Assembly (NCBI GenBank): GCA_964472415.1
Contig: CAYYLC010000004.1
Location: forward strand, 33,110-97,109
Length of the DNA: 64,000 bases
Source of the DNA: an uncultured Gammaproteobacteria bacterium
Lineage (GTDB): Bacteria > Patescibacteriota > Microgenomatia > Levybacterales > GWA1-39-11
Reading direction: 5' to 3'
Part shown: in pieces, positions 2,953 to 59,400 of the stretch
Layout of the letters: each line of letters opens with the position of its first letter
How positions within the stretch are numbered: the first letter of the stretch is position 1
Position numbers and translations under genes: made by a program
Notes under the pieces: model-generated
Seen by the model: only the letters and a program-made list of their open reading frames with translations
The model's database searches: none
Told to the model about the DNA's origin: nothing

Positions 2953-4290
2953 TTAAAACTCTACGTATTTTCGCACTGTATGAGAAGTTCCTGCGATATT
3001 AAAGGCATCAAATAAAAATCCCACTTCTTCACTTAAAGCTTTTTTTATCTTTTCTTTAAATTCCTCCGGTAATGTCCAGCAGTCCTTCTTAAACTTTCCT
3101 ACAGATTTTTTTCGTAGTTTATAAATAAACTGTGTATCATTCCATCCTTCTTCTCGTTGAGATTCTAAATTTTCAAGCGTCCATGCATGCATTTTTTCTC
3201 GCAGATCTTCTGGAATATTTTCCATTATAATATTCTGAAACTCTGTAGATAGATGAACTTCAACCGTATCGTGTTCAGGGAATTTAGAAAACTCTTCCCT
3301 CGGCAAAGTAGAAGCTCCATGTTGAACAGTGCCCGCAATCTTGTATTTATCACGAGAAACACAGCTTATATCTTTAAGAACTGAAAAATCAATCTCTGCT
3401 CTCTTTACATTTCCATCTTTATCTGGAATCCCGCCATGAGATGTTCCAGTCTGCACACTCACCTTCACAAGCCCTTCTCTGTCTCCGATACTATCTAAAT
3501 ACCCTTCCATAAACGCCGTAAAATCGTCGGAGGTGCTGTTTTTCCCACCAATATGGCCTATCTCTCCACCAATCGAAACTCTCACCCCTGGTGGCTGTAA
3601 ATTCCTGATATATTTTGTGATTTCTGCAGTCATGTCGTAATTGTCTCTTTGCTGTTCAGATAAATCTTCTTTTTCTAAGTCTACAAGCGTAGAGGCATCA
3701 ATATCTATGTTATAGATATGCGCCATAAGACTATCTTTTATGAGGAGCTCAATATTATCAATCTCCTCTTGGGGATTTTTCTCAAATATCTTTTTTGTAA
3801 ACTGATAATGATCTCCTTGAATAAACACTGGACCTTCAAATCTTGCTTTTATTGCGCCTGCAAGAACTGATGCGCTAAATTCTTCGGGACGCTGATCTGT
3901 ATAGTCCATTTCGTGTCGCGCAAGCTCAAGGATAAATGCACCAGCTTCTCGCTTTTTTGCCTCTTCAAAAATAACTTGAGAAAAATCATAATTCATCATA
4001 CGAATATTCATTGCTGGCACACTAAATCCGGTAACTTCTCCACGCCCAATTGCCTTATATAGCTCAAGGATTGAGGCAGATTTTACACCAACTAACGGCG
4101 CAATCTTACGAATTAGAACTTGTGCAGCAAATTTAACCGATGAATCCTCAGAAAGCGCTGATGTATACGCAAGCGTATCAATTCCCTCAGCATAGAGTTT
4201 TTCAATGTTAGTAATTTCTAAAACATCGTCTCCTCTTACAAACGTAGAAACATATGAAGAAAACTCTTCACTATTATTTATAACCATCAT
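2953..4290 (-). CDS. class II fructose-bisphosphate aldolase family protein (long form)
   Basis: 'VPAMNIRMMNYDFSQVIFEEAKK...' matches the class II aldolase N-terminal barrel. A 'GDH' zinc-ligand region is present, as are C-terminal 'GGEIGHIGG' and 'VQHGAS' motifs. It sits adjacent to pgk. Confidence 0.55.
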   Translation of the reverse strand: MMVINNSEEFSSYVSTFVRGDDVLEITNIEKLYAEGIDTLAYTSALSEDSSVKFAAQVLIRKIAPLVGVKSASILELYKAIGRGEVTGFSVPAMNIRMMNYDFSQVIFEEAKKREAGAFILELARHEMDYTDQRPEEFSASVLAGAIKARFEGPVFIQGDHYQFTKKIFEKNPQEEIDNIELLIKDSLMAHIYNIDIDASTLVDLEKEDLSEQQRDNYDMTAEITKYIRNLQPPGVRVSIGGEIGHIGGKNSTSDDFTAFMEGYLDSIGDREGLVKVSVQTGTSHGGIPDKDGNVKRAEIDFSVLKDISCVSRDKYKIAGTVQHGASTLPREEFSKFPEHDTVEVHLSTEFQNIIMENIPEDLREKMHAWTLENLESQREEGWNDTQFIYKLRKKSVGKFKKDCWTLPEEFKEKIKKALSEEVGFLFDAFNIAGTSHTVRKYVEF

Positions 4291-21708: not shown

Positions 21709-22399
21709 TGATCCATATTATGGATTCTTAAAAATAAAGAGTCAAATTATCTGCTTATCATCTAAGCCGCCGCAGTCCATGAGAGGTAATCGAAATAAGA
21801 AGCAAGTTTTTTTATTCTGGGCAAGATTTTTTTAAAGGGGCTATGAAATCTTACTTCTCACGGACTGCACATGTAAAATCGGTTTAACCAACTACTTTGC
21901 GTAGCTTGCTAAAAAGAAATATACGAGTTGGCGGGCGTGTTTTTTTGCATTTTTTACAACAGCTGCCACTACACCTCACCCCCTTTCATAATTGCTTTAT
22001 AAGTAAATAGTTCCATAGCTATCTAATCAATCCTTTTAATTTCATTGTCAAATTTCGGCATAGATTCCAATCGATCATAGGAAAACTCCTCCATCATGAG
22101 ATCAAAGATTTCAATATTTTCTGAAACGACTACAATTTCAAACTTTTGCTTAATTTTCATCTCATTGAATCAGTGACTTGCTCAAGATATGCCACACTAG
22201 CCCCGTCGGCATGAACATGTGGTCCTTCTACAAGAAAAAATGATGCGAGAAGAAATGATGCGATAAAAAGAAATGCTATTCTTTTGGGATGTGTGAAAAA
22301 TTTTCTATTTTGCCTCAATGAGCCGATTATTACTTTCATAGTTTTCTAGAATATACCCATTCAATCAGGTTCAGTTGAAGGGGTCAAATATAGTTTTAT

Positions 22400-22439
22400 T
22401 TTGCATAATATTGTATATAATTGCATAATATTGTATAGT
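22400..22439. repeat. tandem 20-bp direct repeat (TTGCATAATATTGTATA-N3) x2, operator-like
   Basis: 'ttgcataatattgtatataa' is followed at once by 'ttgcataatattgtatagtt' (18/20 identical). It ends 8 bp before the HTH gene start. Confidence 0.6.
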
Positions 22440-22446
22440 TAAAATT

Positions 22447-22722
22447 ATGGATAATTTTTATAATGTAAATCAAGCAGCCTTTATCATGAAAGTCCACCCA
22501 CTTACAATTCGCCGATATATTCGCGAAGGTGTATTGAAGGCGGTACGTCTCGGTGGAAATGTTCGGATAAAAGAACAAGATCTTCAGCATTTCATGCGCG
22601 ACTTTGAACCACGAAGCAAAAAAGAGACCTCGCCATTCCGAAAAATCTCACAACAAAAAAAATTCACTACGGCTGACCCATTTTTGAGGTTAAAAGGACG
22701 AGCAGTAACCGTTGACATATAG
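22447..22722 (+). CDS. excisionase/MerR-type HTH DNA-binding protein (candidate antitoxin)
   Basis: 'AAFIMKVHPLTIRRYIREGVLKAVRLGGNVRIKEQDL' is the Xis-family HTH. It lies 5 bp upstream of the PIN-like ORF. Confidence 0.55.
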   Translation: MDNFYNVNQAAFIMKVHPLTIRRYIREGVLKAVRLGGNVRIKEQDLQHFMRDFEPRSKKETSPFRKISQQKKFTTADPFLRLKGRAVTVDI

Positions 22723-22727
22723 ACCAA

Positions 22728-23150
22728 ATGGCATTATCAAAAAAAGTTATTATAGCTCCGGATGCAATATATTCGTATATTGACAGAGCATCTGATAAAC
22801 ATCAGCAAGCTGTCGCATTTTTCCGCTATTTCTCAGAAGAACATTATCGCGTGTTTGTTGATATATTAAGTATTAATGATGTATACAATGATATATATAA
22901 ACGCATGAGCCAAGACCTAGCAAAAGACTTCCTCCGAATTGTCTCTCTCTCAGATATGAATCTTATATACCCTGATGAAGGGGAAATAAAAGCAGCAGTT
23001 AAAGCACTTATAAACTATCGCTCATTGGATCTTACTTTTTCTCAAGCAGCACTTTCAGTGGTAGCATCTCGAAGAAATATTAATCAAGTCGCAACTTTTC
23101 AAACACTTACTCCCCTTTTTGGACTCCAGACATTCTACCTTCCTATCTAA
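22728..23150 (+). CDS. PIN-domain-like protein (candidate VapC-type toxin)
   Basis: 140 aa. The N-terminal 'KVIIAPDAIYSYIDRASDKHQQA' beta-strand plus Asp, the conserved acidic positions and the size are all PIN-like. It is tightly coupled to the HTH gene. Confidence 0.4.
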   Translation: MALSKKVIIAPDAIYSYIDRASDKHQQAVAFFRYFSEEHYRVFVDILSINDVYNDIYKRMSQDLAKDFLRIVSLSDMNLIYPDEGEIKAAVKALINYRSLDLTFSQAALSVVASRRNINQVATFQTLTPLFGLQTFYLPI

Positions 23151-23256
23151 CTATAGTTAATTGTATAGCAATAATATTTAAAGTATAGCAATATATCTTA
23201 ATTTTATCCTCACGTTGGTTTGGAAAAGAGATTTTTTTTGCTATAATTACCCTATT

Positions 23257-23327
23257 GCCTCTGTAGCTCAACGGCAGAGCGGCGGTTTTGTAAACCGTTG
23301 ATACGGGTTCGATTCCTGTCAGGGGCT
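23257..23327 (+). tRNA. tRNA-Thr (anticodon UGU)
   Basis: Acceptor GCCTCTG/CAGGGGC, D arm GCTC-AACGGCA-GAGC, anticodon stem GCGGT/ACCGT with loop TTTGTAA, T arm ACGGG-TTCGATT-CCTGT. Confidence 0.85.
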
Positions 23328-23399
23328 CACATAATTCAAACTTTGAGATAGCCCCTTTGCTATTAACTCAATATTTTTACTTATATAAAAAGGGCACAT

Positions 23400-28996: not shown

Positions 28997-29641
28997 ATGC
29001 CATCAAAATACGTTTTACGAGACTTCAAGCAGGGTGAATACTACCACGTCGCAAATTATGGCGTAGACAAACGGAGTATATTTGAAGATGAAGAGGATTT
29101 TAGAACCTTTCTCTACTATCTAAAAGTATATCTACTTCCCAAAGAAACACTTGAAAAAATGCCCAATCTCCCCAAACGAATGCTCTCAAAAAATAGACAT
29201 TCAGAGGTAGAGCTTCTCTCATATAGCCTCATGCCAAACCATTTTCATTTATTACTGGGCGAAAAAGAGCTCGGCGGAATATCCTTAATCATGAAGCAAC
29301 TCTCAAATGCGTACACCAAGTATTTTAATGAGCGCCACAAACGCTCCGGTAGCTTATTTGAAGGCCCTTTTAAAGCCGCACATGTCAAAAGCGATGAAAT
29401 CATACAAGTCACCCGCTACATTCACCTAAACCCATTCCTTGCGGGACTCGTAGATGATCCTGATAAATACCGCTGGTCTGACTTTCCAACGTACACAAAT
29501 TCGCAAGAGGTGAATATCTCAAACACAAGCCCAGTACTTTCACAATTCAATACGCCAGCTGACTACAAACATTTTGTGCATAACTACATGGACTATGCTG
29601 AAAAAATAAAGGGACTCGACCACGTTTTAATAGATAATTAA
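28997..29641 (+). CDS. IS200/IS605-like Y1 (HUH) transposase family protein (PF01797-like, long form)
   Basis: HUH motif 'LMPNHFHLLL' and a downstream catalytic-Tyr region 'VTRYIHLNP...DPDKYRWSDF'. At 214 aa it is longer than canonical IS200 TnpA. Confidence 0.6.
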   Translation: MPSKYVLRDFKQGEYYHVANYGVDKRSIFEDEEDFRTFLYYLKVYLLPKETLEKMPNLPKRMLSKNRHSEVELLSYSLMPNHFHLLLGEKELGGISLIMKQLSNAYTKYFNERHKRSGSLFEGPFKAAHVKSDEIIQVTRYIHLNPFLAGLVDDPDKYRWSDFPTYTNSQEVNISNTSPVLSQFNTPADYKHFVHNYMDYAEKIKGLDHVLIDN

Positions 29642-35030: not shown

Positions 35031-36542
35031 ATGATTTCTAGAATTTATCTTCTTCTGCCTTTGCTGGGCATAAGCATCGGTATTACAGGGCTCTTCCTTT
35101 TTGTTTTCACGAAAAATGCTCACGCAGCAACACTTATAAACGCAAGTAACACTATTACAACATCTCGCCCTTCAGCCGCTTCACCCTTTTCTTCAGATGT
35201 TTCTGGTACTGACACTACAGCAGCGATTCTGAATAATGGATCGTTCTATCTTGCATCAGATTCTGCACAAATCAGACAAGGGCAAAGTGGCGCACTTATT
35301 GATGCAGCAACAATTATCGCTTCACAATCTGCAGCACTCACTACTGTGTATTTTTCAGAGGCTGTCGGCGCTGGGGCTGGAGCTGACTCAGATGTTCTCA
35401 TTGTACCAATCACTGCTATGCATAGAATCCAATTTACTATACCTCAAACGATTCCTACCTCTGGAGACATTGTACTCACCTTCCCAATACTTGAGACTGG
35501 AGATGCAAATAATGAAGCTTCTCCTTCTGCCTCTACATTCCAGTTCAACGACCTCGATACGAACGCTGCCACACTCATTCACGTAGTAGATGATGGAACG
35601 GATATCACCGCAAATATTACTGCCGCTGCCACAAATCCTGCGAGCGCTGGGGACTCACCAGAGATCATCATTACCCTTAATAGTGGAAGCATTGTCTCAG
35701 GAAGCGTTGTAGATATATTTATCGGTTGCACAACTATTGCAGCTGGTGACTGCTCTGCCCAGACACCGACACTCATTAACCCGACAAAGACTGCATCAGC
35801 TGGGACTGCTGATGTCTGGAAAATAAATGCTCAGACTCGAGATGCATCTGATGTGAATCTCGATAACGCTACTATTGCTATCGGCACTATTGAATCTGTT
35901 ACCGTTCGGGCAACTGTAGATCCAACACTCTCCTTCACTATTTCTGGGATTGGAAATGGATCAGCAATTAATCTCGGAAACACGACCGGATGCTTGCAAA
36001 CGGAAACAACAAATGCTGGGATTGATTCTACTTCTACTGAGGTAAACCTTGGACTCCTCGCTAATACTCCATCAGGAACTGATGTAAAAGTAGGAAATAT
36101 TGCAGCACAAAGAATCAACATAACCACGAATGCTGCTGGAGGATATATTCTCGCTGCAACATCATCCGGACAACTCATCAACCCAGAAACCGGATTTTTC
36201 CTTAACTCCTCTACCACTCCGACTGCATTCCCTTCAAGTGGCGCTGACTGGTTCGGTATTCATCCGTGTGGACTTGATGTAACTACTGCCACGTGGAATT
36301 CTACTGCAAGTACTGCATGTAGCAGCTTTGTAAGTGGTTCAACAGATCCGATTTGTCTGTATGCGTGGCCTACACAGAGTGCACCACTTACTCTTGCATC
36401 AGATGCAGTAGGACCTATTGGTAACTCACTTGTTACTGGAAATGGAGTAATTTCTGTTGCGTACGCCGCGTCTGTAGATCCGGGAATCCCCCCAGGATCA
36501 TATAGAACAGTAATAACGTATGTGGCAACACCAGTATTCTAG
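35031..36542 (+). CDS. secreted S/T-rich surface protein with WxL-like C-terminal domain (CscB/C-like), paralog A
   Basis: Signal peptide (AHA|A) and a C-terminal ~180 aa with 'LSFTISGIGNGSAINLGN...' and a terminal 'YRTVITYVATPVF'. These parallel WxL domain features ('l.l.svP..inFG', a terminal 'Y.GTLTWTL...P'). Confidence 0.45.
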   Translation: MISRIYLLLPLLGISIGITGLFLFVFTKNAHAATLINASNTITTSRPSAASPFSSDVSGTDTTAAILNNGSFYLASDSAQIRQGQSGALIDAATIIASQSAALTTVYFSEAVGAGAGADSDVLIVPITAMHRIQFTIPQTIPTSGDIVLTFPILETGDANNEASPSASTFQFNDLDTNAATLIHVVDDGTDITANITAAATNPASAGDSPEIIITLNSGSIVSGSVVDIFIGCTTIAAGDCSAQTPTLINPTKTASAGTADVWKINAQTRDASDVNLDNATIAIGTIESVTVRATVDPTLSFTISGIGNGSAINLGNTTGCLQTETTNAGIDSTSTEVNLGLLANTPSGTDVKVGNIAAQRINITTNAAGGYILAATSSGQLINPETGFFLNSSTTPTAFPSSGADWFGIHPCGLDVTTATWNSTASTACSSFVSGSTDPICLYAWPTQSAPLTLASDAVGPIGNSLVTGNGVISVAYAASVDPGIPPGSYRTVITYVATPVF

Positions 36543-36579
36543 AGTTGAGATTATATAAAAATTAATAAATAATAAAAAT

Positions 36580-37563
36580 ATGAAACATCCTGCTCAAGCA
36601 AAATATTTTATAAAAATAACACTCCCCGCAATCCTTATTTCCTTCTTCTTCGTGGCTCTCGCTCAGATCGTATTCGCACAAGAAGCACCTCAAAGAAGCA
36701 TCACAATATCTCCGCCAACCATTGAGCATACTCTTATCCCAGGAGAACGTGCTGAAGGGGTTCTCAAAGTTACAAATGGAGGAAATACTGACCTCACATT
36801 CCAGGCAAATATTCATGACTTTATCGTAGAAGATAAGATTGGAACTCCAAATCTTCTTGCTGATGAAACCTTAACTGAAAAATATTCTGCTGCCACTTGG
36901 CTTGCAGTGACGCCAAATTCCTTCACTGTTCCAGCAGGAACTACGAAGGAGCTAAGCTATTTTCTTCAGGTGCCAGCTGATGCTGCACCAGGCGGAAGAT
37001 ACGCTGCAGTAGTCTATGAGCCAGTTAATATTCTAGATGTTGAAGGGACCGGTGCTGGAGTAAACACCCAATCACTTTCACTCTTTTACATAACTATTGA
37101 TGGACCAATCACAGAAGATGCTGAAGTTGTAAATTTTTCTATTCCAGGATTTTCTGAATATCCTCCTGTAACTGTTTCTACAGAAATTAAAAATAATGGT
37201 CCGCTTCATATTAAACCAAGCGGAAGTATTATTATCCGGAATATGTTTGGCAAAGAAATCGCACGACATGAATTCACTGGCGGAAACATCTTCCCAGAGG
37301 CAACACTCCTGTATGAAAATGAGTTTTTCTCAGATTCAAAGATTCGCGTTGGGCGCTATACGGCAGAACTTTCCACAGCATTTGGTCGCGATCTCAATAT
37401 CCCCCTTGAAGCAACCGCATCATTCATCATCTTCCCTTGGAAAATTGCAGCAGGAATCGCACTTCTTATCGCAATCCTCGTAGTCACAGTTGTGCTCATA
37501 AGAAATAAAAAAACACCTAAAAATCCTCGACCCGAAGCGACGCCTCAACCAACCATAAAATAG
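36580..37563 (+). CDS. DUF916/DUF3324-like cell-surface protein with C-terminal TM anchor (CscA-like)
   Basis: Signal peptide, 'ITISPPTIEHTLIPGERAEGVLKVTNGGNTDLTF' (DUF916-like pattern), a later 'IIIRNMFGKEIARHEF' (DUF3324-like), a C-terminal TM helix and a basic tail. Confidence 0.45.
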   Translation: MKHPAQAKYFIKITLPAILISFFFVALAQIVFAQEAPQRSITISPPTIEHTLIPGERAEGVLKVTNGGNTDLTFQANIHDFIVEDKIGTPNLLADETLTEKYSAATWLAVTPNSFTVPAGTTKELSYFLQVPADAAPGGRYAAVVYEPVNILDVEGTGAGVNTQSLSLFYITIDGPITEDAEVVNFSIPGFSEYPPVTVSTEIKNNGPLHIKPSGSIIIRNMFGKEIARHEFTGGNIFPEATLLYENEFFSDSKIRVGRYTAELSTAFGRDLNIPLEATASFIIFPWKIAAGIALLIAILVVTVVLIRNKKTPKNPRPEATPQPTIK

Positions 37564-37572
37564 GGAAATAGT

Positions 37573-39051
37573 TTGACAGAAGATTTTATTTCTGCGCACA
37601 ATAATACAATGAAGATAATTTTTGTACTTATGATATCCGCAATTCTCTTTTTTGTAAAAATCTCTCATGCGAATGCGGCAGACCTTATCAATACTCGTGA
37701 CACACTCTCAACTTCTCGCCCATCAGCAGCTTCTCCTTTTACCAGTAATGCAGCCTCTAATGACCGGACTATTACAATTTTGAATAACGGATCGTTCTAT
37801 CTTGCATCAGATTCTGCACAAATAATCCGACACTCAACAGGCACAATTCTCGCAACTGATATTCCTATATCTTCTCAATCTGCGGGGCTTTCTACTATCT
37901 ATCTCGGAGATGATATCGGTACGAATACAACTTCAGGAGATGATATATTGCTCGTTCCAATTACCTCAACTCATACCATACGATTTACTACTGCCTCAGA
38001 AATCCCCGCTGGTGGAGATATACTCCTTACATTTCCGGGAGCAGCGAATAACTCTGCTTCTCCTTCTGCAACTACGTTTGCCTTTAATGGGCTAAATAGC
38101 ACTGGTGGACTTCCAGGAGGAATTTCTAGTCATAACATTTCATGTAATACAAATTCCTTTGTTTTTTCTCCACAAATCATGTGTGAAACAACAGGCTCAG
38201 TTCCGGCTGGCACTACAATAACTATTCTTATTGGCTGCACTGCACAGTCCGGTGGAAATTGTACGACTCAATCTCCGACACTCATCAATCCAACAAAGAC
38301 TACAACCACTGGAACCGCAGATATCTGGAAAATATTTATCCAGACCCGAGATGCAACAGACATAGAACTCGACTCTGCAACCGTTGCAATCGGCACAATA
38401 GATTCTGTTACTGTTCGTGCGTCTATTGATCCCTCTCTTACCTTTGCAATTACAGGAATCGGAAATGGTTCAGCAGTTAACCTTGGAAACACGACCGGAT
38501 GCTTGCAAACGGAAATTACCAATTCGGGCCTCAATTCAACCGCAACTGAAATAAATCTTGGACTCCTTGCAGATACTCCATCAGGAATTGATGTAAGAGT
38601 AGGAAATATTGCAGCACAACGAATCAATATTAGCACCAATGCTGCGAATGGCTATACGCTATCAGCAACATCATCCGGTCAACTTATCAATCCTACCACT
38701 GGATTTTTCCTCGCATCTTCTACCACTCCAACCGCATTCCCTTCAAATAGTTCAGATTGGTTCGGTATCCATCCGTGTGGACTTGATGTAACTACTGCCA
38801 CGTGGAATTCTACTGCAAGTACTAGCTGCAATACGTATATTTCGGGTTCAACAGATCCGATTTGTCTGTATGCGTGGCCTACACAGAGTGCACCACTTAC
38901 TCTTGCATCAGATGCAGTAGGACCTATTGGTAACTCACTTGTTACTGGAAATGGAGTAATTTCTGTTGCGTACGCCGCGTCTACTGATGCAGGCGTTCCC
39001 CCAGGAAGTTATTCTACAGTTATCACCTATACTGCAACTCCAGTCTTCTAG
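37573..39051 (+). CDS. secreted S/T-rich surface protein with WxL-like C-terminal domain, paralog A'
   Basis: Same architecture as 35031..36542. The 3' region contains 138 identical nucleotides. Confidence 0.45.
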   Translation: MTEDFISAHNNTMKIIFVLMISAILFFVKISHANAADLINTRDTLSTSRPSAASPFTSNAASNDRTITILNNGSFYLASDSAQIIRHSTGTILATDIPISSQSAGLSTIYLGDDIGTNTTSGDDILLVPITSTHTIRFTTASEIPAGGDILLTFPGAANNSASPSATTFAFNGLNSTGGLPGGISSHNISCNTNSFVFSPQIMCETTGSVPAGTTITILIGCTAQSGGNCTTQSPTLINPTKTTTTGTADIWKIFIQTRDATDIELDSATVAIGTIDSVTVRASIDPSLTFAITGIGNGSAVNLGNTTGCLQTEITNSGLNSTATEINLGLLADTPSGIDVRVGNIAAQRINISTNAANGYTLSATSSGQLINPTTGFFLASSTTPTAFPSNSSDWFGIHPCGLDVTTATWNSTASTSCNTYISGSTDPICLYAWPTQSAPLTLASDAVGPIGNSLVTGNGVISVAYAASTDAGVPPGSYSTVITYTATPVF

Positions 39052-53451: not shown

Positions 53452-56400
53452 ATGGAATTTATTGCACTTTTCAAAGACTATCTTTCAAAGAAGAAAATAA
53501 CAAACAAGACGACTGTCAAAAACTATCTCTCTGATATTCGTCATTTTGTGAATTGGTATGAGAAATCATTTGGTATCGCCTTTTCTCCAACAGAATTTAC
53601 CGATGATATTATAAAGCTCTATGAAGGATCTTCTGGTGCTCCGATCCTGGGTGGAAATATTTCAACAGAGAACAAGCTCTCACACTCCTCCCTGAAGCGC
53701 CATCTTTCCTCATTGAGAAAGTTTGCACTATTTCTGACAGAAAATAAACAAGTAGAGAAGAATCCATTTCATCAAGGAAAGGTTAATGGACAGGACTCGA
53801 CACCTGTCGATATTTGGCATATTCAGGAATTCAAAGATTACCTGAAATTTAAGAAAGCATCCCCTCTAACAATAAAGAACTATCTCACAGATATACATTC
53901 TTTCCGGAGATGGTATGAGAACTCTCTCGGGGAGAATTCTGAAGATTTAAGCTTTCCTCGTATCAATAATACGATCGTTTCTGAATACAAAACCCGCCTC
54001 CACGAATATAAAGGTGCTGCACCACGCACAATTAACCGAAAGCTTTCTTCTCTAAGAAAATATGTTGAATTTGCCATCGGCGCATACTACATGAGTGAAA
54101 ACACACTCCATGAAACGACTGCCACAAAACCATTCCTCATCTCCGAAAATGAGGCCAAAGAAGAGAATAAGCTATCACTTACTGAGATAAAATCCCACAA
54201 AATCAATCTAAACTATTCCTCCTTTCCCCCTATCAGACTTATCCAAACTCTGATAATTCTGCCCTATCTCTTCCTTGAAGGATTTCTCGCAGCAAAAATT
54301 GCAGAACTTCTCGGAACAGTAGCACCCCTCACTCTTGCTGCACAGAAACTTACTCCAGCTCCAAAAATATCCTCAATTCCCACCAAACCTTCTGAACTTT
54401 TAAAGGTAAAAGGATATGAGAAAAAGTTCTACGCTCCCCAAGATATTTCCACGAGCAATCTCTCGTCTCCTGAAAAAATCTGGCATAAACTAAAACACAA
54501 TAGACCGAAATGGTATAAAAAATATCATAATACTCCAATAGTTCACTATATTCATTTTGCGATTCTTATCATTTTTGCTGCAGGGGTCGGAGTTGCGCTC
54601 TATAGAAACTTAGTAACTGATACAAAAAGCCCACTCTTTGCAGCCCCCACCTCTCCACCTCGAGTACTCTCCTTCCAAGGTCGGCTTACTGATAATTTGA
54701 ATAATCCCATAACCACTGCGACTGATATTCGCTTCGCGATATATGATGATATTGCAGCATCCGGGTCTGCACTGCTCTGGCAAGAAGTCCATCACGCAAC
54801 AAATCCTGACCAAGATGGAATTTTTTCTGTTTTACTCGGAACTCAAACTGCGATTCCTGATAGTGTATTTTTAGAAAATAATGACATCTATTTAGGAGTA
54901 ACGATCGAACAAACAGAAGAATTAGCACCTCGGAGAAGAATTGCATCAGTTCCCTATGCCGCAAATTCAGAAAGCCTCCAAGGAATGCGCCCCATCACTG
55001 ACACAAGCGCTGGAACCACAAACGTTGTTCTTGCACTCGATTCTTCTGGAGATCTCACAATAGGCGGAGCCGCAAATCCAACATTTTCCGCAACAGGAGG
55101 CCAATTCTCTCTTTCCGGCGATATTTTACTCCTGACAACCGAAACCGGCACAGATTCAAACATAGTACTCTCTCCTGATGGAATCGGTCAGATTGATTTG
55201 CAGAAAACGCTTGTAAATACTTCAACTAACGGAAATCTTGTCCCTGGGGGAGTAGAAGTTAATGATAAATTTGGTGTACTTGCTACAGAATCTGCAGTTG
55301 CCGCATTTATCGTGAATAATGACGGGCTTTCAGATATTTTCACTGCATCCGCATCAGGTGCAACCCGTTTTACTATAGAAAGTGATGGAACATTGATTGC
55401 TCCTAACTACAATACTGCCGGAGGAGTACTCTGGGCAAATGGAAGCGGAGAGATTAACCAATCAACAGGTGGCCTCTCTGGACAATGCCTCCAATCTACT
55501 GGGGGAACTGCTCCCACGTGGGGAGCATGTGACAGCTCGGCTGGTGGTATGTTCCAAGAGCTTGCTGGTGCGATCATACCAAACAATACAACACTTGATT
55601 TTCTCCTCGGTGGAACCGCTACCTCATCCGCCAAATTCTCGGTTCTTAACATGAATTCGGGAACACCAATCGCATCAATATCGGCAAATTTTGGTAACAA
55701 CGCAACCTACCTAACTGGAGATGGAACTCTTGCAACTACAAACCGTCGTGATCTTATCCTCGGAAACTCCTCCTCCTATAATACAACGGGGAATGTTCTT
55801 ATAAACACGAACGGAACAGGGAGAGTCGGGATTGGTACAGGAGCACCATCAACCAAACTTGATGTAAATGGATCAGGAGGCGTAGCGCTATTTGGAACTG
55901 CAAGTCTTGTTGATCAATATATCTCCCTAAGAAGTCCCTCAACGGGAGTATCATTTGGTATTGATGCAAATCTCAATGGAGGAAGCGGCGCGGGACTCAT
56001 ACAAGCAGGGACCAGCAAAGCCCTCGCGTTTGATGCAAACAATGGAACATTCGGCTCTGCCACCACGCCAGATTTATATATTGATACTACAGGGTATGTT
56101 GGGATTGGTGATGCATCACCTACTGCTCTTTTCACGGTAGGAAATGGTGACCTTTTCCAAGTTAACGCAAGCGGCGCAATTGCAGCCGCAACGGGAATAA
56201 CTTCATCTGGCACTATCACCCTTTCAAATCTTAATACAAATGGAGGAATACTATACGCAAACGGATCAGGAGTACTTACCCAAACCGGAGCTGGTACCTC
56301 TTCTCAATGTCTTCTCGGTGGCACTACTCCTACATGGGGAACATGCGCTGATGGAGCTGGCGCATTTACGATCGATGCAGCAAATGGACTAACTGTCCAG

Positions 56401-59400
56401 AATAACACAACCACAGACTTTCTGATCGGAGGGACAGCAACAAGTAGTGCGAAATTTGCATTAACAAATGTGGATTCTGGTCCTCCTACATTTACTGTAG
56501 GGAGTGGGGATCCGATATTGAAAGGGACGTATAATACGAGCGGAGGTGTTGAGGACATCTATGTATCTGGAAAATATGTGTATGTAGCGGATGGCAGCTC
56601 TGGCCTACAGATAATAGACGCATCGGATCCTTCATCTCCAACACTTGTTGGAACATACGATACAAGTGGGAATGCACTCGGGGTTCATGTATCGGGTAAA
56701 TATGCATACATCGCAGACGATACTGTAGGACTTCGAATCATCGACATCTCGGATCCTTCATCTCCAACACTTGTTGGAACATACAATACAAGTGGGAATG
56801 CTCGGAGCATTTATGTCTCAGGAAAATATGCGTATGTAGCAGACGGATTTTCTGGCCTACATATCATTGACATCTCGGATCCTTCGTCACCAACTCTTAC
56901 GGGAACATATGACACAAGTGGATACAGCTACGATGTCTATGTCTCAGGAAAATATGCGTATGTAGCAGATGATAGTGACTTGAAGATCATCGACATCTCG
57001 GATCCTTCATCTCCAACACTTGTTGGAACATACAATACAAGTGGGAATGCTCGGAGCATTTATGTCTCAGGAAAATATGCGTATGTAGGAGATCTAAGCT
57101 CTGGGATTCAGATTGTAAACATCTCGGATCCTTCGTCACCAACTCTTACAGCAGATGGTCCTGGAGGAGCTCATGATGTCTATGTCTCAGGAAAATATGC
57201 ATATGTGCCAAATGGAACGGGCGACTTTCAGCTTATTGACATCTCGGATCCTTCGTCACCAACTCTTACGGGAACATATGACACAAGTGGAGACGCTCGG
57301 AGCATTTATGTCTCAGGAAAATATGCGTATGTAGGAGATCTAAGCTCTGGTCTTCAAATTCTCGAACTCCCCGGCATAGACACTCCGACACTACATACAG
57401 GGAATATTGAAACAGGAAGTATTACCATAACTGAAAATGCAGATATAGGAAACAACCTATATGTACATAATGGACTGAATGTAGGAAATGGTGGTATTTA
57501 TTCACAGGGAGCACTCGGTATATTTTCAGGAACTTCTGGGACAAATCTTATCCAAGGAAATCCTACTGGAAAAGCACTTCTTACCTTGAATAATACCGGT
57601 GGATCTGATATCTTCACCGCCTCTGCTTCCGGTACTACTCTCTTTACCATAACGAATGCTGGAGGATTACGGCTTGGAACAGATGAAGGGACTTCTGGTG
57701 AGTGCCTGCTTTCAGGTGGTGTTGGAGCAGGTGCAAGCTGGGGATCGTGTGGCGCATCTTCCCAATGGACTACCACTGGATCTGATATTTACTACAATAC
57801 CGGGAATGTGGGAATCGGAACATCTGACATAACTGCAAAATTTGAAATATTATCCAACCTTGGCACTGGACATGCAGCATCAATTTCTGCTATAACTGCC
57901 AAATCATCACTTCTCGTCACCAATGATGGAACCGGAGATCTTATCACCGCATCTGCCTCTGGTAGCACAAAGTTCACTGTAGATAATGAGGGAAATATTT
58001 ACCTTTATGGGCAGATTATCGGTATGGGGGCTGACTTTGCTGAATATTATGAAAAAGAAGATTCTGATGAAGAATTTCTTGCAGGAAGTTTAGTATGTCT
58101 TGCAATAAACGGTACTGTTACAAATTGCAAAAATTCAGATACTACTCAGAAATTACTCGGCGTCGTATCAGACAATGCAATTATTGCAGGTAATGGAGAT
58201 AAAAAGGACGACAATAACTATGTCCTTGTAGGGCTTTTAGGACAGCTCCATGTACGGGTCACAGGAGATATACAAGCTGGAGATCCACTCACGATGTCTA
58301 ATCTTTCTGGCGTCGCAGAAAAAGCAACACAAGAAGGATTTATCATCGGATATGCCATGGAATCAAGTTCAAACACCAAAGATCGAATTATTACATCAAT
58401 TAAGTCGACGTACTACAATCCAAATCTCGCGCTCAATATCGCAGGTGACAATGCAGAAGAATTTGCTGCATCGCTCAATATAAAAAATACTGATGGAACA
58501 ATTGCTATTACTGATGTATCAGGAGCTATCATAAAACGTGCAGAGGCATTCTCACACGTCATCTCAGCAAATATAAATGCCGGAATTGTAAACGCACAAA
58601 AAGTTACGGGAAATGTTATAACAGGTACTACTGGTGCATTCCAAAGCCTTACTGCAACAACTGCAAACATCACCTCTGCCTCATTCAATTCGATTAGTAT
58701 TGGTTCAGAAAATGTTCTTATAGCAGGAACTTCTCTTCGCGACTATATCGCAGAGATCGTTGCAGAAAACATTGAAAATGTAAACTTTTCAAATGGTGAG
58801 GAAATCATTTCCCCGCTTGCCTCAATCGACCAGATAAATACGAATATTATCTCCCCACTTGCTGATGACAGTAGTGTGGAGATCGAACTGAAAAAAGATA
58901 GTATTGCGATACATAATACTGAAACTCAAGAAACCGTAGCTGAAATTGATCATGAGGGGAATGCTCGTTTTATCGGAGACATTGAAGCAAATGATGCAAC
59001 ATTTTCAGGGACACTATCAGCTGATAGAATAATCGCAGGAAATATCGATGGACTTGACGAGAAAATCTCTTCTATCGCAGGAAGCCTTGCACAGAACCAT
59101 CCTACTCCATCCTCACCTTCAGCAGATATCACTTCTACAGACGAATTTCAGGTGGGGAATCTCTATGCAGATCTTGGGATTTATTCGGAAGGATTAACGA
59201 TCCTGGGCACTACTACCACAAGTCAACTTACTGCAATGGATAGTATTGCAGTAGGGACTGGATTCGTGATAAACGAAAATTCAATCAATACATTGGGGAA
59301 AACACTTGAAATTCAACCGCTCCGTCAAGGAGCCATCAGCTTCATGGCTGGAAAAGTAATTATTGATACCGACGGAAACATGAATATCAATGGGAATCTT

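What the first reader, a model, noticed from the sequence alone, without database searches (positions are those of the whole stretch)
22396..23150. Candidate Xis-HTH/PIN toxin-antitoxin operon with a tandem operator-like repeat
A 91-aa excisionase-family HTH gene is followed 5 bp later by a 140-aa ORF. That ORF has a PIN-like N-terminal strand ending in Asp (KVIIAPDAIYSYID) and acidic residues at PIN-typical spacing.

Immediately upstream (22400..22439) is a perfect-register tandem direct repeat 'TTGCATAATATTGTATA(t/g)' x2 ending 8 bp before the start codon. This arrangement is typical of autoregulated TA operators.

Similar 'GTATAGCAATA' motifs recur at 23171 and 23193, downstream of the pair. 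The module sits next to tRNA-Thr(UGU) in a region of small orphan genes.
Basis: partly seen in the sequence, partly recalled or inferred. Interest (0 to 1): 0.55.

Follow-up and report, generated by a model that had tools for sequence, protein, structure and literature searches.

The report
Conserved HTH plus dead-PIN regulatory pair
A small DNA-binding protein and a nuclease-shaped partner that has lost its catalytic residues form a two-gene unit conserved across one group of ultra-small (CPR) bacteria, always preceded by four evenly spaced 10-bp repeats, so it looks more like a retired toxin-antitoxin pair now used for gene regulation than like a working toxin.

Summary
A 91-aa excisionase/MerR-type HTH gene (22447-22722) sits 5 bp before a 140-aa gene (22728-23150). 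A perfect repeat at 22401-22438 ends 8 bp before the ATG.

The repeat is really four 10-bp phased units, TTG(C/T)ATAnnA. It is unique in the 64-kb window. It recurs once per locus, same strand, upstream of the HTH gene in 53 of 59 related species genomes (Levybacteria and allies, one copy each). It contains sigma-70-like promoter hexamers.

The HTH domain is closest to BldC and Xis, which bind direct repeats head to tail. Ancestrally the pair lies between a divergent large surface-protein gene and secreted-protein paralogues; the window holds a rearranged remnant.

Best reading: a vertically inherited, TA-derived autoregulatory pair with a non-catalytic PIN partner. DNA binding and non-toxicity are inferred, not shown.

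The parts
22157..22339 (-). Remnant 60-aa ORF: the truncated N-terminus (signal-peptide region) of the large divergent surface-protein gene that flanks the module in relatives.
   Evidence: A 38-aa alignment to the N-terminus of the 2690-aa protein upstream of the HTH in L072 (MKVIIGSLRQNRKFFTHPKR... vs MRIFVSSLKQNRQFFTHPKR..., score 126). Family 3 lies upstream on the minus strand in 35 loci.
22383..22387 (-). GTCAA (TTGAC on the minus strand), 14-18 bp upstream of the array. Probably the -35 of the divergent promoter.
   Evidence: Present at this offset in at least 70% of 54 aligned loci. In several relatives it forms GTCAA-N4-6-TTGACA back to back with the first array unit. Its function is inferred.
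22401..22440 (+). Array of four 10-bp phased direct repeats (TTGCATAATA TTGTATATAA TTGCATAATA TTGTATAGTT). Proposed composite promoter and operator of the operon.
   Evidence: Scores 24/24 against 4x TTGNATA. It is the only array of at least 19/24 on either strand of the 64 kb (three overlapping registers of it, 21, 24 and 20, at 22391, 22401 and 22411); in 20 shuffles the maximum was usually 17-18, once 20. An array scoring at least 20/24 sits on the + strand upstream of the HTH in 53 of 59 related genome loci and nowhere else in them. It contains -10-like hexamers TATAAT 22416-22421, CATAAT 22424-22429 and TATAGT 22434-22439. In L055 and L057, units 1 and 3 form TTGACA-N17-TATAAT/TATATT.
22447..22722 (+). 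HTH gene. The 91-aa protein has a BldC/Xis-type winged HTH (residues 1-52), a variable linker, and a conserved C-terminal motif K.FT..DPFLRLKGRAxTV.
   Evidence: HTH_17 1.2e-10 and TIGR01764 1.6e-10. Alignment A2 shows an almost invariant wHTH and invariant F73, D77, P78, G84 and R85 in the tail. The AF2 model has pLDDT above 90 for residues 1-50 and 57-70 for the tail. The best PDB matches are BldC-DNA complexes, Pukovnik Xis and RdfS. It is found upstream of the PIN gene in all 58 of the 59 tabulated loci where the upstream sequence is present.
22728..23150 (+). PIN-fold gene (140 aa) of the VapC structural type, with the catalytic acidic quartet lost (A10, D51, Q106, Q125).
23163..23193 (.). 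GTATAGCAATA x2 at 20-bp spacing, between the PIN stop codon and the tRNA-Thr promoter. Whether it belongs to the module is uncertain.
   Evidence: An exact 11-mer repeat. Identical in same-species contigs L001 and L002; one degenerate copy in L073; absent in L010, L072 and L074. It shares the 9-mer ATTGTATAG with array unit 4. In one search's scan of the window, which lists every 4-unit register scoring at least 19/24, it does not appear; my own hand count for it is about 14/24.

Best explanation
This is a conserved two-gene operon of Levybacteria-type CPR bacteria. It descends from a MerR/Xis-HTH plus PIN (VapBC-like) toxin-antitoxin module but no longer encodes a canonical ribonuclease toxin.

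Proposed mechanism:
1. The HTH protein is a monomeric BldC/Xis-type winged helix.
2. Up to four copies bind head to tail, one per helical turn, to the four phased TTG(C/T)ATAnnA units.
3. Those units make up the operon's own promoter, so binding represses the operon. It probably also influences the back-to-back divergent promoter.
4. The conserved C-terminal tail of the HTH (DPFLRLKGR) binds the PIN-fold partner.
5. The partner has lost the Asp/Glu quartet needed for metal-dependent RNA cleavage. It acts as a non-catalytic subunit: a co-repressor or oligomerisation scaffold, or possibly an RNA- or ligand-binding sensor.

Shown here: the fold, the loss of catalytic residues, conservation of the pair, conservation, orientation and phasing of the array, and the ancestral synteny with surface or secreted-protein genes.

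Inferred: that the HTH binds the array, that the tail binds the PIN protein, and that the PIN protein is non-toxic.
For: - **Loss of catalytic residues:** the profile alignment to VapC26 puts its D4/E42/D97/D116 on positions 10/51/106/125, which are A/D/Q/Q in the window. In 120 homologues position 10 is A79/S21/T9/E7/D2, and none has four acidic residues. In the same hmmalign, 74 of 83 distant PIN proteins have all four acidic and 79 of 83 are acidic at position 10, which validates the mapping. Matelska et al. [quoted passage not shown]
- **Array:** unique in the window. It is present once, on the + strand, upstream of the HTH in 53 of 59 related genome loci. T2 is 100% conserved and spacing is exactly 10 bp. 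It stays at the head of the operon even where another gene is inserted before the HTH (L010).
- **HTH:** nearest structures are BldC on direct repeats, Xis and RdfS. BldC binds 2-4 direct repeats head to tail at 4:1 stoichiometry (PMC5859096), with one DNA turn between protomers (as summarised in PMC11963761).
- **Antitoxin-like layout:** a near-invariant wHTH, a variable linker and a conserved C-terminal motif.
- **Vertical inheritance:** 62 loci in 62 different species genomes. Neighbours are conserved: a roughly 366-aa secreted-protein family directly downstream in 39 loci, a large surface protein divergently upstream in 35. A remnant of that upstream gene is still present in the window.
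Against: - No experiment or transcript data exist. DNA binding, complex formation and lack of toxicity are all inferences.
- The window protein keeps D51, and many family members keep 2-3 of the 4 acidic positions. Other near-invariant acidic residues exist (D19, D67, D/E101) whose 3D positions I could not inspect, so a non-canonical active site or a non-enzymatic toxic mode is not excluded.
- The array could be only a reiterated promoter, or the site of another regulator.
- In the window the pair is detached from the surface-gene cluster and no second array exists in the 64 kb. A regulatory role beyond autoregulation therefore has no support in this genome.
- How completely the pair covers the lineage is unknown, because the genomes are incomplete MAGs.
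Confidence: 0.5

Rival explanations
1. It is a functional type II VapBC-like toxin-antitoxin system of the known PIN-MerR class. The PIN protein is still toxic, through a non-canonical active site or by stoichiometric binding of an RNA or ribosomal target. The HTH neutralises it and autoregulates through the repeats.
For: The gene order, sizes, 5-bp spacing and HTH architecture (DNA-binding domain plus conserved tail) are those of type II TA modules. The PIN fold is closest to bona fide VapC toxins. A PIN plus truncated-MerR TA class was predicted by Makarova et al. 2009 (PMC2701414). A sister clade (for example P0254 in L075), paired with the same kind of HTH, keeps an acidic residue at position 10 and passes Pfam PIN. 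Many members keep 2-3 acidic positions.
Against: The first and most invariant catalytic Asp is A/S/T in 91% of the family, and no member has the full quartet. The pair is single-copy per genome with conserved synteny, unlike the plasmid-enriched PIN-MerR class. Both proteins are strongly conserved, with new family-specific invariant residues (R33, Y53, K66, D67, R70, N78, K88, K92). Other genes are inserted between the HTH and PIN genes in several species, which would upset toxin-antitoxin coupling.
Confidence: 0.22
2. The four repeats are only a reiterated sigma-70 promoter (TTG... resembling -35, ...TATAAT resembling -10), or the binding site of an unrelated regulator. In that case the HTH protein does not bind them.
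For: Units 1 and 3 form a consensus TTGACA-N17-TATAAT in L055 and related loci. The window array contains a perfect TATAAT at 22416-22421. Phased TTGYATA units also occur in unrelated metagenomic contigs.
Against: A promoter needs two elements, not four units conserved in register, with T2 at 100% and A5/T6/A7 above 90% in all four units. The array co-occurs with this HTH gene and nothing else in about 6.4 kb of each locus, and nowhere else in the 64-kb window. Direct repeats one helical turn apart are exactly what the closest structural relatives of the HTH bind.
Confidence: 0.18
3. The HTH is a true excisionase (recombination directionality factor) of a mobile element integrated at tRNA-Thr, and the PIN gene is cargo.
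For: It matches the TIGR01764 excisionase family. It is structurally similar to Xis and RdfS. A tRNA-Thr gene lies 107 bp downstream and an IS200-type Y1 transposase about 6 kb away.
Against: No integrase appears in the flanks of the window or of any related locus examined. The tRNA is adjacent only in the window and L073, whereas the HTH-PIN-array unit is constant. The locus is a rearranged chromosomal site that still holds a remnant of the ancestral neighbour.
Confidence: 0.03

Closest known systems
PIN-MerR (truncated MerR / HTH_17) predicted type II TA class, within VapBC (Makarova, Wolf & Koonin 2009, PMC2701414)
   Same: A small MerR-like HTH that lacks the dimerisation helix is encoded next to a VapC-type PIN protein. 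The order is HTH first and the genes are tightly spaced. The HTH has an extra short region that could contact the PIN domain.
   Different: Here the PIN protein lacks the catalytic acidic quartet. The pair is single-copy and syntenic in one CPR lineage instead of plasmid-enriched and patchy. The extra region of the HTH is C-terminal, whereas Makarova et al. describe an N-terminal one. A conserved four-unit direct-repeat array accompanies it.
BldC (Streptomyces) and the wHTH excisionases Xis and RdfS
   Same: The same small winged-HTH fold (best PDB matches). Those proteins bind 2-4 direct repeats head to tail, about one helical turn apart, forming short filaments on promoters. This matches the 4 x 10-bp array.
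   Different: The repeat sequence differs (BldC: AATTxxxx(C), 9-bp repeats). The protein falls below the NCBIfam BldC cutoff (19.8 vs 77 bits). BldC has no PIN partner and no conserved C-terminal tail. No recombinase is nearby, unlike Xis and RdfS.
FitAB / VapBC operator complexes (for example 2bsq, 3zvk)
   Same: A PIN protein bound to the tail of a DNA-binding partner assembles a higher-order repressor on the operon's own promoter. The PIN subunit strengthens DNA binding by bridging the DNA-binding modules.
   Different: FitA and VapB use dimeric RHH or AbrB domains on inverted repeats. FitB and VapC keep their catalytic residues, which the antitoxin masks. Here the DNA-binding domain is monomeric, the sites are direct repeats, and the catalytic site is gone.
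Non-catalytic PIN domains (Utp23, SMG5, Nmd4)

Membership tests
PIN domain / VapC (PF01850) | Alpha/beta/alpha Rossmann-like fold with a central parallel sheet, VapC-type | tested here: met
PIN domain / VapC (PF01850) | Sequence match to the Pfam PIN model above the gathering score | tested here: inconclusive
   The window protein has no PIN hit even at E up to 10. Homologues P0092, P0062, P0069, P0006, P0087 and P0091 pass (25.7-40.8 bits against a cutoff of 23.6), and P0047 is just below.
PIN domain / VapC (PF01850) | Four conserved acidic residues: Asp after strand 1, Glu after strand 2, Asp at the helix N-terminus, Asp after strand 4 | tested here: not met
   The window has A10/D51/Q106/Q125. 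0 of 120 family members have all four, against 74 of 83 distant PINs in the same alignment.
Type II toxin-antitoxin system (VapBC-like) | Two small adjacent co-oriented genes, with the DNA-binding antitoxin first | tested here: met
   A 91-aa HTH, a 5-bp gap, then a 140-aa PIN-fold protein. The pairing is conserved in all 58 of the 59 tabulated loci where the upstream sequence is present.
Type II toxin-antitoxin system (VapBC-like) | The toxin inhibits growth and the antitoxin neutralises it by direct binding | not testable with these tools
   This needs expression and rescue assays. The conserved C-terminal motif of the HTH is compatible with binding.
Type II toxin-antitoxin system (VapBC-like) | Autoregulatory operator at the promoter | tested here: inconclusive
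   A conserved phased repeat array overlaps promoter-like hexamers. Binding by the HTH was not tested.
Type II toxin-antitoxin system (VapBC-like) | Mobile, patchy, often multi-copy distribution | tested here: not met
   62 loci in 62 different genome assemblies, including one each in two complete chromosomes. Flanking gene families are conserved.
Excisionase / recombination directionality factor | HTH_17 / TIGR01764 winged-helix domain | tested here: met
Excisionase / recombination directionality factor | Partner integrase and att site of a mobile element nearby | tested here: not met
   No integrase family appears in the called genes of the window-equivalent contig or of related loci. The conserved neighbours are surface or secreted proteins.
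BldC-family regulators | Small MerR-like wHTH without a coiled-coil dimerisation helix | tested here: met
   The top Foldseek hits are BldC chains (TM about 0.8 on the target). The model has no long helix after residue 52.
BldC-family regulators | NCBIfam NF033787 HTH_BldC score above the cutoff | tested here: not met
   19.8 bits against a cutoff of 77.
BldC-family regulators | Cooperative head-to-tail binding to direct repeats | not testable with these tools
   The cis-element has the expected geometry (4 direct units, 10-bp phase). Binding needs EMSA or footprinting.

The most novel reading that the evidence does not exclude
A toxin-antitoxin module has been domesticated in a CPR lineage. 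A VapC-type PIN protein that lost its nuclease site has become an obligatory, conserved subunit of a BldC/Xis-like filament-forming repressor. That repressor sits on a four-turn phased direct-repeat promoter and controls a divergent pair of surface or secreted-protein operons, genes likely to matter for the episymbiotic lifestyle. The family-specific invariant basic and polar residues (R33, K66, R70, N78, K88, K92) would form a new functional surface.
Probability: 0.35. Interest if true: 0.6.

Novelty: new variant of a known kind. Interest (0 to 1): 0.45.

Why it matters
If the reading is right, this is a clean natural example of a VapBC-type module losing its toxin chemistry while being kept for tens of species-level divergences together with its operator. 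That bears on a long-running question: what chromosomal TA loci are for, and how they are co-opted.

It also supplies a ready-made, comparatively defined operator (4 x TTGYATAnnA) and regulator for Candidate Phyla Radiation bacteria, where almost no transcription factor-site pairs are known. It points to a set of secreted and surface proteins that may be under its control.

Practically, it warns that automated 'PIN toxin' calls in CPR genomes can be wrong when the catalytic residues are not checked.

Tried and rejected
- **Complex prediction.** I tried to predict the HTH-PIN complex as a linker fusion.
- **Metagenome scan for the array.** I scanned for three phased TTGYATA units to look for further targets (a regulon). 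Only 2 of 120 loci carried the HTH-PIN pair, so it says nothing about a regulon.
- **PDB sequence search with the family profile.** This gave only a marginal VapC26 hit (E 0.38). It was useful for residue mapping but not as evidence of homology. Fold comparison was needed.
- **Defence-system models.** PADLOC gave only a generic HTH_17-type hit (mad1) for the HTH and nothing meaningful for the PIN protein.
- **Pfam on the neighbour genes.** The conserved downstream secreted proteins and the window's 35-39 kb cluster gave nothing.
- **Rfam.** Only tRNAs were found in 18-30 kb.
- **Downstream GTATAGCAATA pair as a second operator.** I considered this and rejected it as unsupported. It does not appear's scan of the window for 4-unit registers scoring at least 19/24 (my own hand count for it is about 14/24). 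It is absent from L010, L072 and L074.
- **D12 as the catalytic Asp.** Rejected. D12 aligns with the S/G position two residues after the canonical Asp and is D or S about 50:50 in the family.
- **Mobile element at tRNA-Thr.** Rejected: there is no integrase, and the context is a rearranged chromosomal locus.
- **TTTCAC and GTGAAA motifs.** These flank the array in a subset of loci and are enriched (16/54 and 21/54 against about 1% background), but they remain unexplained.

Full report
**What is in the sequence**

The window holds two co-oriented ORFs exactly as described. One is a 91-aa gene at 22447-22722. The other is a 140-aa gene at 22728-23150, 5 bp downstream.

The first protein matches Pfam HTH_17 (1.2e-10) and the TIGR01764 excisionase-family domain (1.6e-10). 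It has weaker similarity to MerR, HspR and BldC-type HTHs.

Upstream, TTGCATAATATTGTATA occurs twice (22401 and 22421), and the second copy ends 8 bp before the ATG. Tandem Repeats Finder shows the basic period is 10 bp. The element is therefore four units: TTGCATAATA, TTGTATATAA, TTGCATAATA, TTGTATAGTT.

This is not chance:
- Only five exact direct repeats of at least 11 nt within 30 bp exist in the 64 kb, against 0.48 expected.
- The two-unit pattern occurs only here, even with one mismatch allowed (0.12 expected).

The downstream GTATAGCAATA pair is real, but it starts at 23163 and 23183. tRNA-Thr(UGU) follows at 23257-23328 behind a good TTGGAA-16-TATAAT promoter.

**The 140-aa protein has a PIN fold but no PIN active site**

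The window protein has no Pfam hit of its own. It has more than 120 homologues of 139-141 aa (45-81% identity), several of which pass PF01850.

A profile alignment to VapC26 puts that protein's catalytic D4/E42/D97/D116 on family positions 10/51/106/125. In the window protein these are A, D, Q and Q.

Frequencies across 120 homologues:

| Position | Residues |
|---|---|
| 10 | A79, S21, T9, E7, D2 |
| 51 | acidic in 69% |
| 106 | acidic in 34% |
| 125 | acidic in 66% |

No sequence has all four acidic.

The mapping has an internal control. I searched 1.84 billion representative proteins with the family profile and aligned the hits to it.
- Distant PIN proteins: 74 of 83 carry acidic residues at all four positions, and 79 of 83 at position 10.
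- The family proper: 0 of 9 have all four.
- An intermediate clade keeps only position 10 and mostly 106.

Matelska et al. [quoted passage not shown]

It is D or S about equally in the family.

In place of the quartet, the family has its own invariant or near-invariant residues: R33, Y53, K66, D67, R70, N78, K88 and K92.

The family is narrow. Only 35 representative clusters score at E of 1e-10 or better in the whole library.

**The HTH partner**

Alignment of 31 homologues shows three parts:
- an almost invariant winged HTH (residues 1-52);
- a variable linker (about 55-70);
- a conserved C-terminal motif K.FT..DPFLRLKGRAxTV, with F73, D77, P78, G84 and R85 invariant.

The model is confident for the wHTH and low-confidence for the tail. 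That is the usual picture for an antitoxin-like tail that folds on its partner.

The closest solved structures are BldC bound to its direct-repeat operators (6ama, 6amk), mycobacteriophage Pukovnik Xis, and RdfS. BldC lacks the MerR dimerisation helix. It binds two to four direct repeats head to tail with 4:1 stoichiometry (PMC5859096), and about one DNA turn separates protomers on the longer site (as summarised in PMC11963761).

**Comparative evidence**

A scan of one genome per species found 62 loci in 62 different assemblies. They are Levybacteria or Levyibacteriota, Gottesmanbacteria, and MAGs with placeholder names, including two complete chromosomes. Each assembly has one locus.

In every locus with upstream sequence, the same HTH gene precedes the PIN gene. 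The HTH is more conserved than the PIN protein in 45 of 57 loci.

An array of four phased TTGNATA units scoring at least 20/24 occurs upstream of the HTH in 53 of 59 related genome loci. It is always on the coding strand and never elsewhere in the roughly 6.4-kb loci.

The pooled consensus is TTG(C/T)ATAnnA:

| Unit position | Base | Frequency |
|---|---|---|
| 1 | T | 85% |
| 2 | T | 100% |
| 3 | G | 85% |
| 5 | A | 92% |
| 6 | T | 94% |
| 7 | A | 96% |

The distance from the array to the ATG varies from about -6 to -166. In some genomes another small gene lies between the array and the HTH (L010). The array therefore marks the head of the operon rather than a fixed leader.

In L055, units 1 and 3 form a consensus TTGACA-N17-TATAAT; L057, L034, L021 and L065 also start with a TTGAC unit but have weaker -10 hexamers. 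The window array contains TATAAT (22416-22421), CATAAT and TATAGT. The array is therefore the promoter, and anything bound to all four units would occlude it.

A GTCAA 14-18 bp upstream of the array is conserved in at least 70% of loci. On the other strand it reads TTGAC and is probably the -35 of a back-to-back divergent promoter.

**Ancestral context**

Clustering the flanking ORFs of the 59 related loci plus the window gave these conserved neighbours:
- a family of roughly 366-aa secreted proteins, often in tandem copies, in 39 loci; it starts within about 100 bp after the PIN gene in 31 of the 35 loci where that distance could be measured;
- a large surface protein of more than 800 aa, divergently upstream, in 35 loci;
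- a WxLIP_PGBD-like protein further downstream in 31 loci.

Close relatives of the window (L072, L074) keep this arrangement. The window and L073 do not.

In the window, the 60-aa minus-strand ORF at 22157-22339 is a truncated remnant of the N-terminus of that large upstream gene. Homologues of the downstream cluster lie about 12 kb away, at 35-39 kb.

The 'tRNA plus orphan genes' setting is thus a local rearrangement of a chromosomal locus. No integrase is nearby in any locus. The pair and its array survived the rearrangement intact.

**Interpretation**

The architecture is that of the PIN plus truncated-MerR class of predicted type II TA modules (Makarova et al. 2009, PMC2701414). A sister clade still carries an acidic residue at position 10 with the same HTH partner and a degenerate array. 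Descent from a VapBC-like module is therefore well supported.

Three observations argue that it is no longer a ribonuclease toxin system: the loss of the catalytic quartet, the single-copy syntenic distribution, and the strong conservation of both proteins and of a four-unit operator.

I commit to the following mechanism, with about 0.5 confidence overall. HTH monomers bind head to tail to the four units, in the manner of BldC and Xis, and repress the promoter. The conserved tail recruits the PIN-fold protein, which serves as a non-catalytic co-repressor, scaffold or sensor.

The rivals, with their confidences, are given in the rival explanations:
- a still-toxic PIN acting through a non-canonical mechanism;
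- an array that is only a promoter or another factor's site;
- a true excisionase of a mobile element.

**What stays unexplained**

- The GTATAGCAATA x2 element is strain-conserved, has one degenerate copy in L073, and is absent from other relatives.
- The TTTCAC and GTGAAA motifs flank the array in a subset of loci.
- Small 23S-rRNA-IVP-family genes are repeatedly inserted within the operon in relatives.

**Verdict**

This is a new variant of a known kind, of moderate interest.

Noticed in passing
window 22157-22339 (-), with tandem repeat 22233-22269: The 60-aa ORF is a truncated remnant of the N-terminus of the large surface protein that lies divergently upstream of the HTH gene in relatives (38 aa align to the L072 2690-aa protein). 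It contains a 15-bp tandem repeat in its signal-peptide-like region.
   Followed up: partly
L004 3556-3927; L010 1770-2180 and 2573-2962; L075 1824-2180; L008 5702-5995: Small 23S_rRNA_IVP (PF05635) four-helix-bundle genes are inserted at different positions in or next to the HTH-PIN operon in several species: before the HTH, between the HTH and PIN genes, or downstream. This suggests a small mobile gene that repeatedly lands in this locus.
   Followed up: partly
window 23163-23193: GTATAGCAATA occurs twice at 20-bp spacing upstream of the tRNA-Thr promoter. Its reverse complement reads TTGCTATAC, which resembles the tRNA promoter's TTGCTATAAT. It shares ATTGTATAG with array unit 4. It is conserved only in the same species, with one degenerate copy in L073.
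   Followed up: partly
window 23220-23247 and L073 about 3670-3690: The tRNA-Thr(UGU) promoter TTGGAA-16-TATAAT has TG before the -10. The TTTTGCTATAATTAC stretch is conserved upstream of the same tRNA in L073.
   Followed up: no
related loci, flanks of the array (for example L061, L063, L060): TTTCAC(AA) just upstream and (TT)GTGAAA(A) just downstream of the array are enriched (16/54 and 21/54 loci against about 1% background). In some loci they form an inverted repeat bracketing the array. No explanation was found.
   Followed up: partly
window about 35031-39051 (+) and 54500-57900: Homologues of the secreted-protein cluster and of the large surface protein that flank the HTH-PIN pair in most species lie elsewhere in this window. 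They have no Pfam annotation. Family members in the related loci (for example L033, L036) end in a conserved ...DYSDxLTVxATGSF.
   Followed up: partly
L004 3205-3245; L010 3430-3545: Relatives carry unrelated short tandem repeats next to the module: GATTGAG x about 5 just before the HTH ATG in L004, and a CTTCATACTTCATGCTTCCTGATTCATG-like array after the PIN gene in L010.
   Followed up: no
Genome-contig loci L011-L071 (record titles): Many of the species-representative MAGs carrying this Levybacteria-type module are titled 'uncultured Gammaproteobacteria bacterium'. This looks like a placeholder or erroneous taxonomic label.
   Followed up: no
metagenome loci L076-L195: Three or more phased TTGYATAnnn units occur widely as 10-bp satellites or sites in unrelated contigs, including high-GC ones. 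Only L164 and L194 carry the HTH-PIN pair.
   Followed up: partly
window 28997-29641 (+): An IS200/IS605-type Y1 transposase gene lies about 6 kb downstream of the module (Pfam Y1_Tnp on the identical contig L001). It may be related to the local rearrangements.
   Followed up: no
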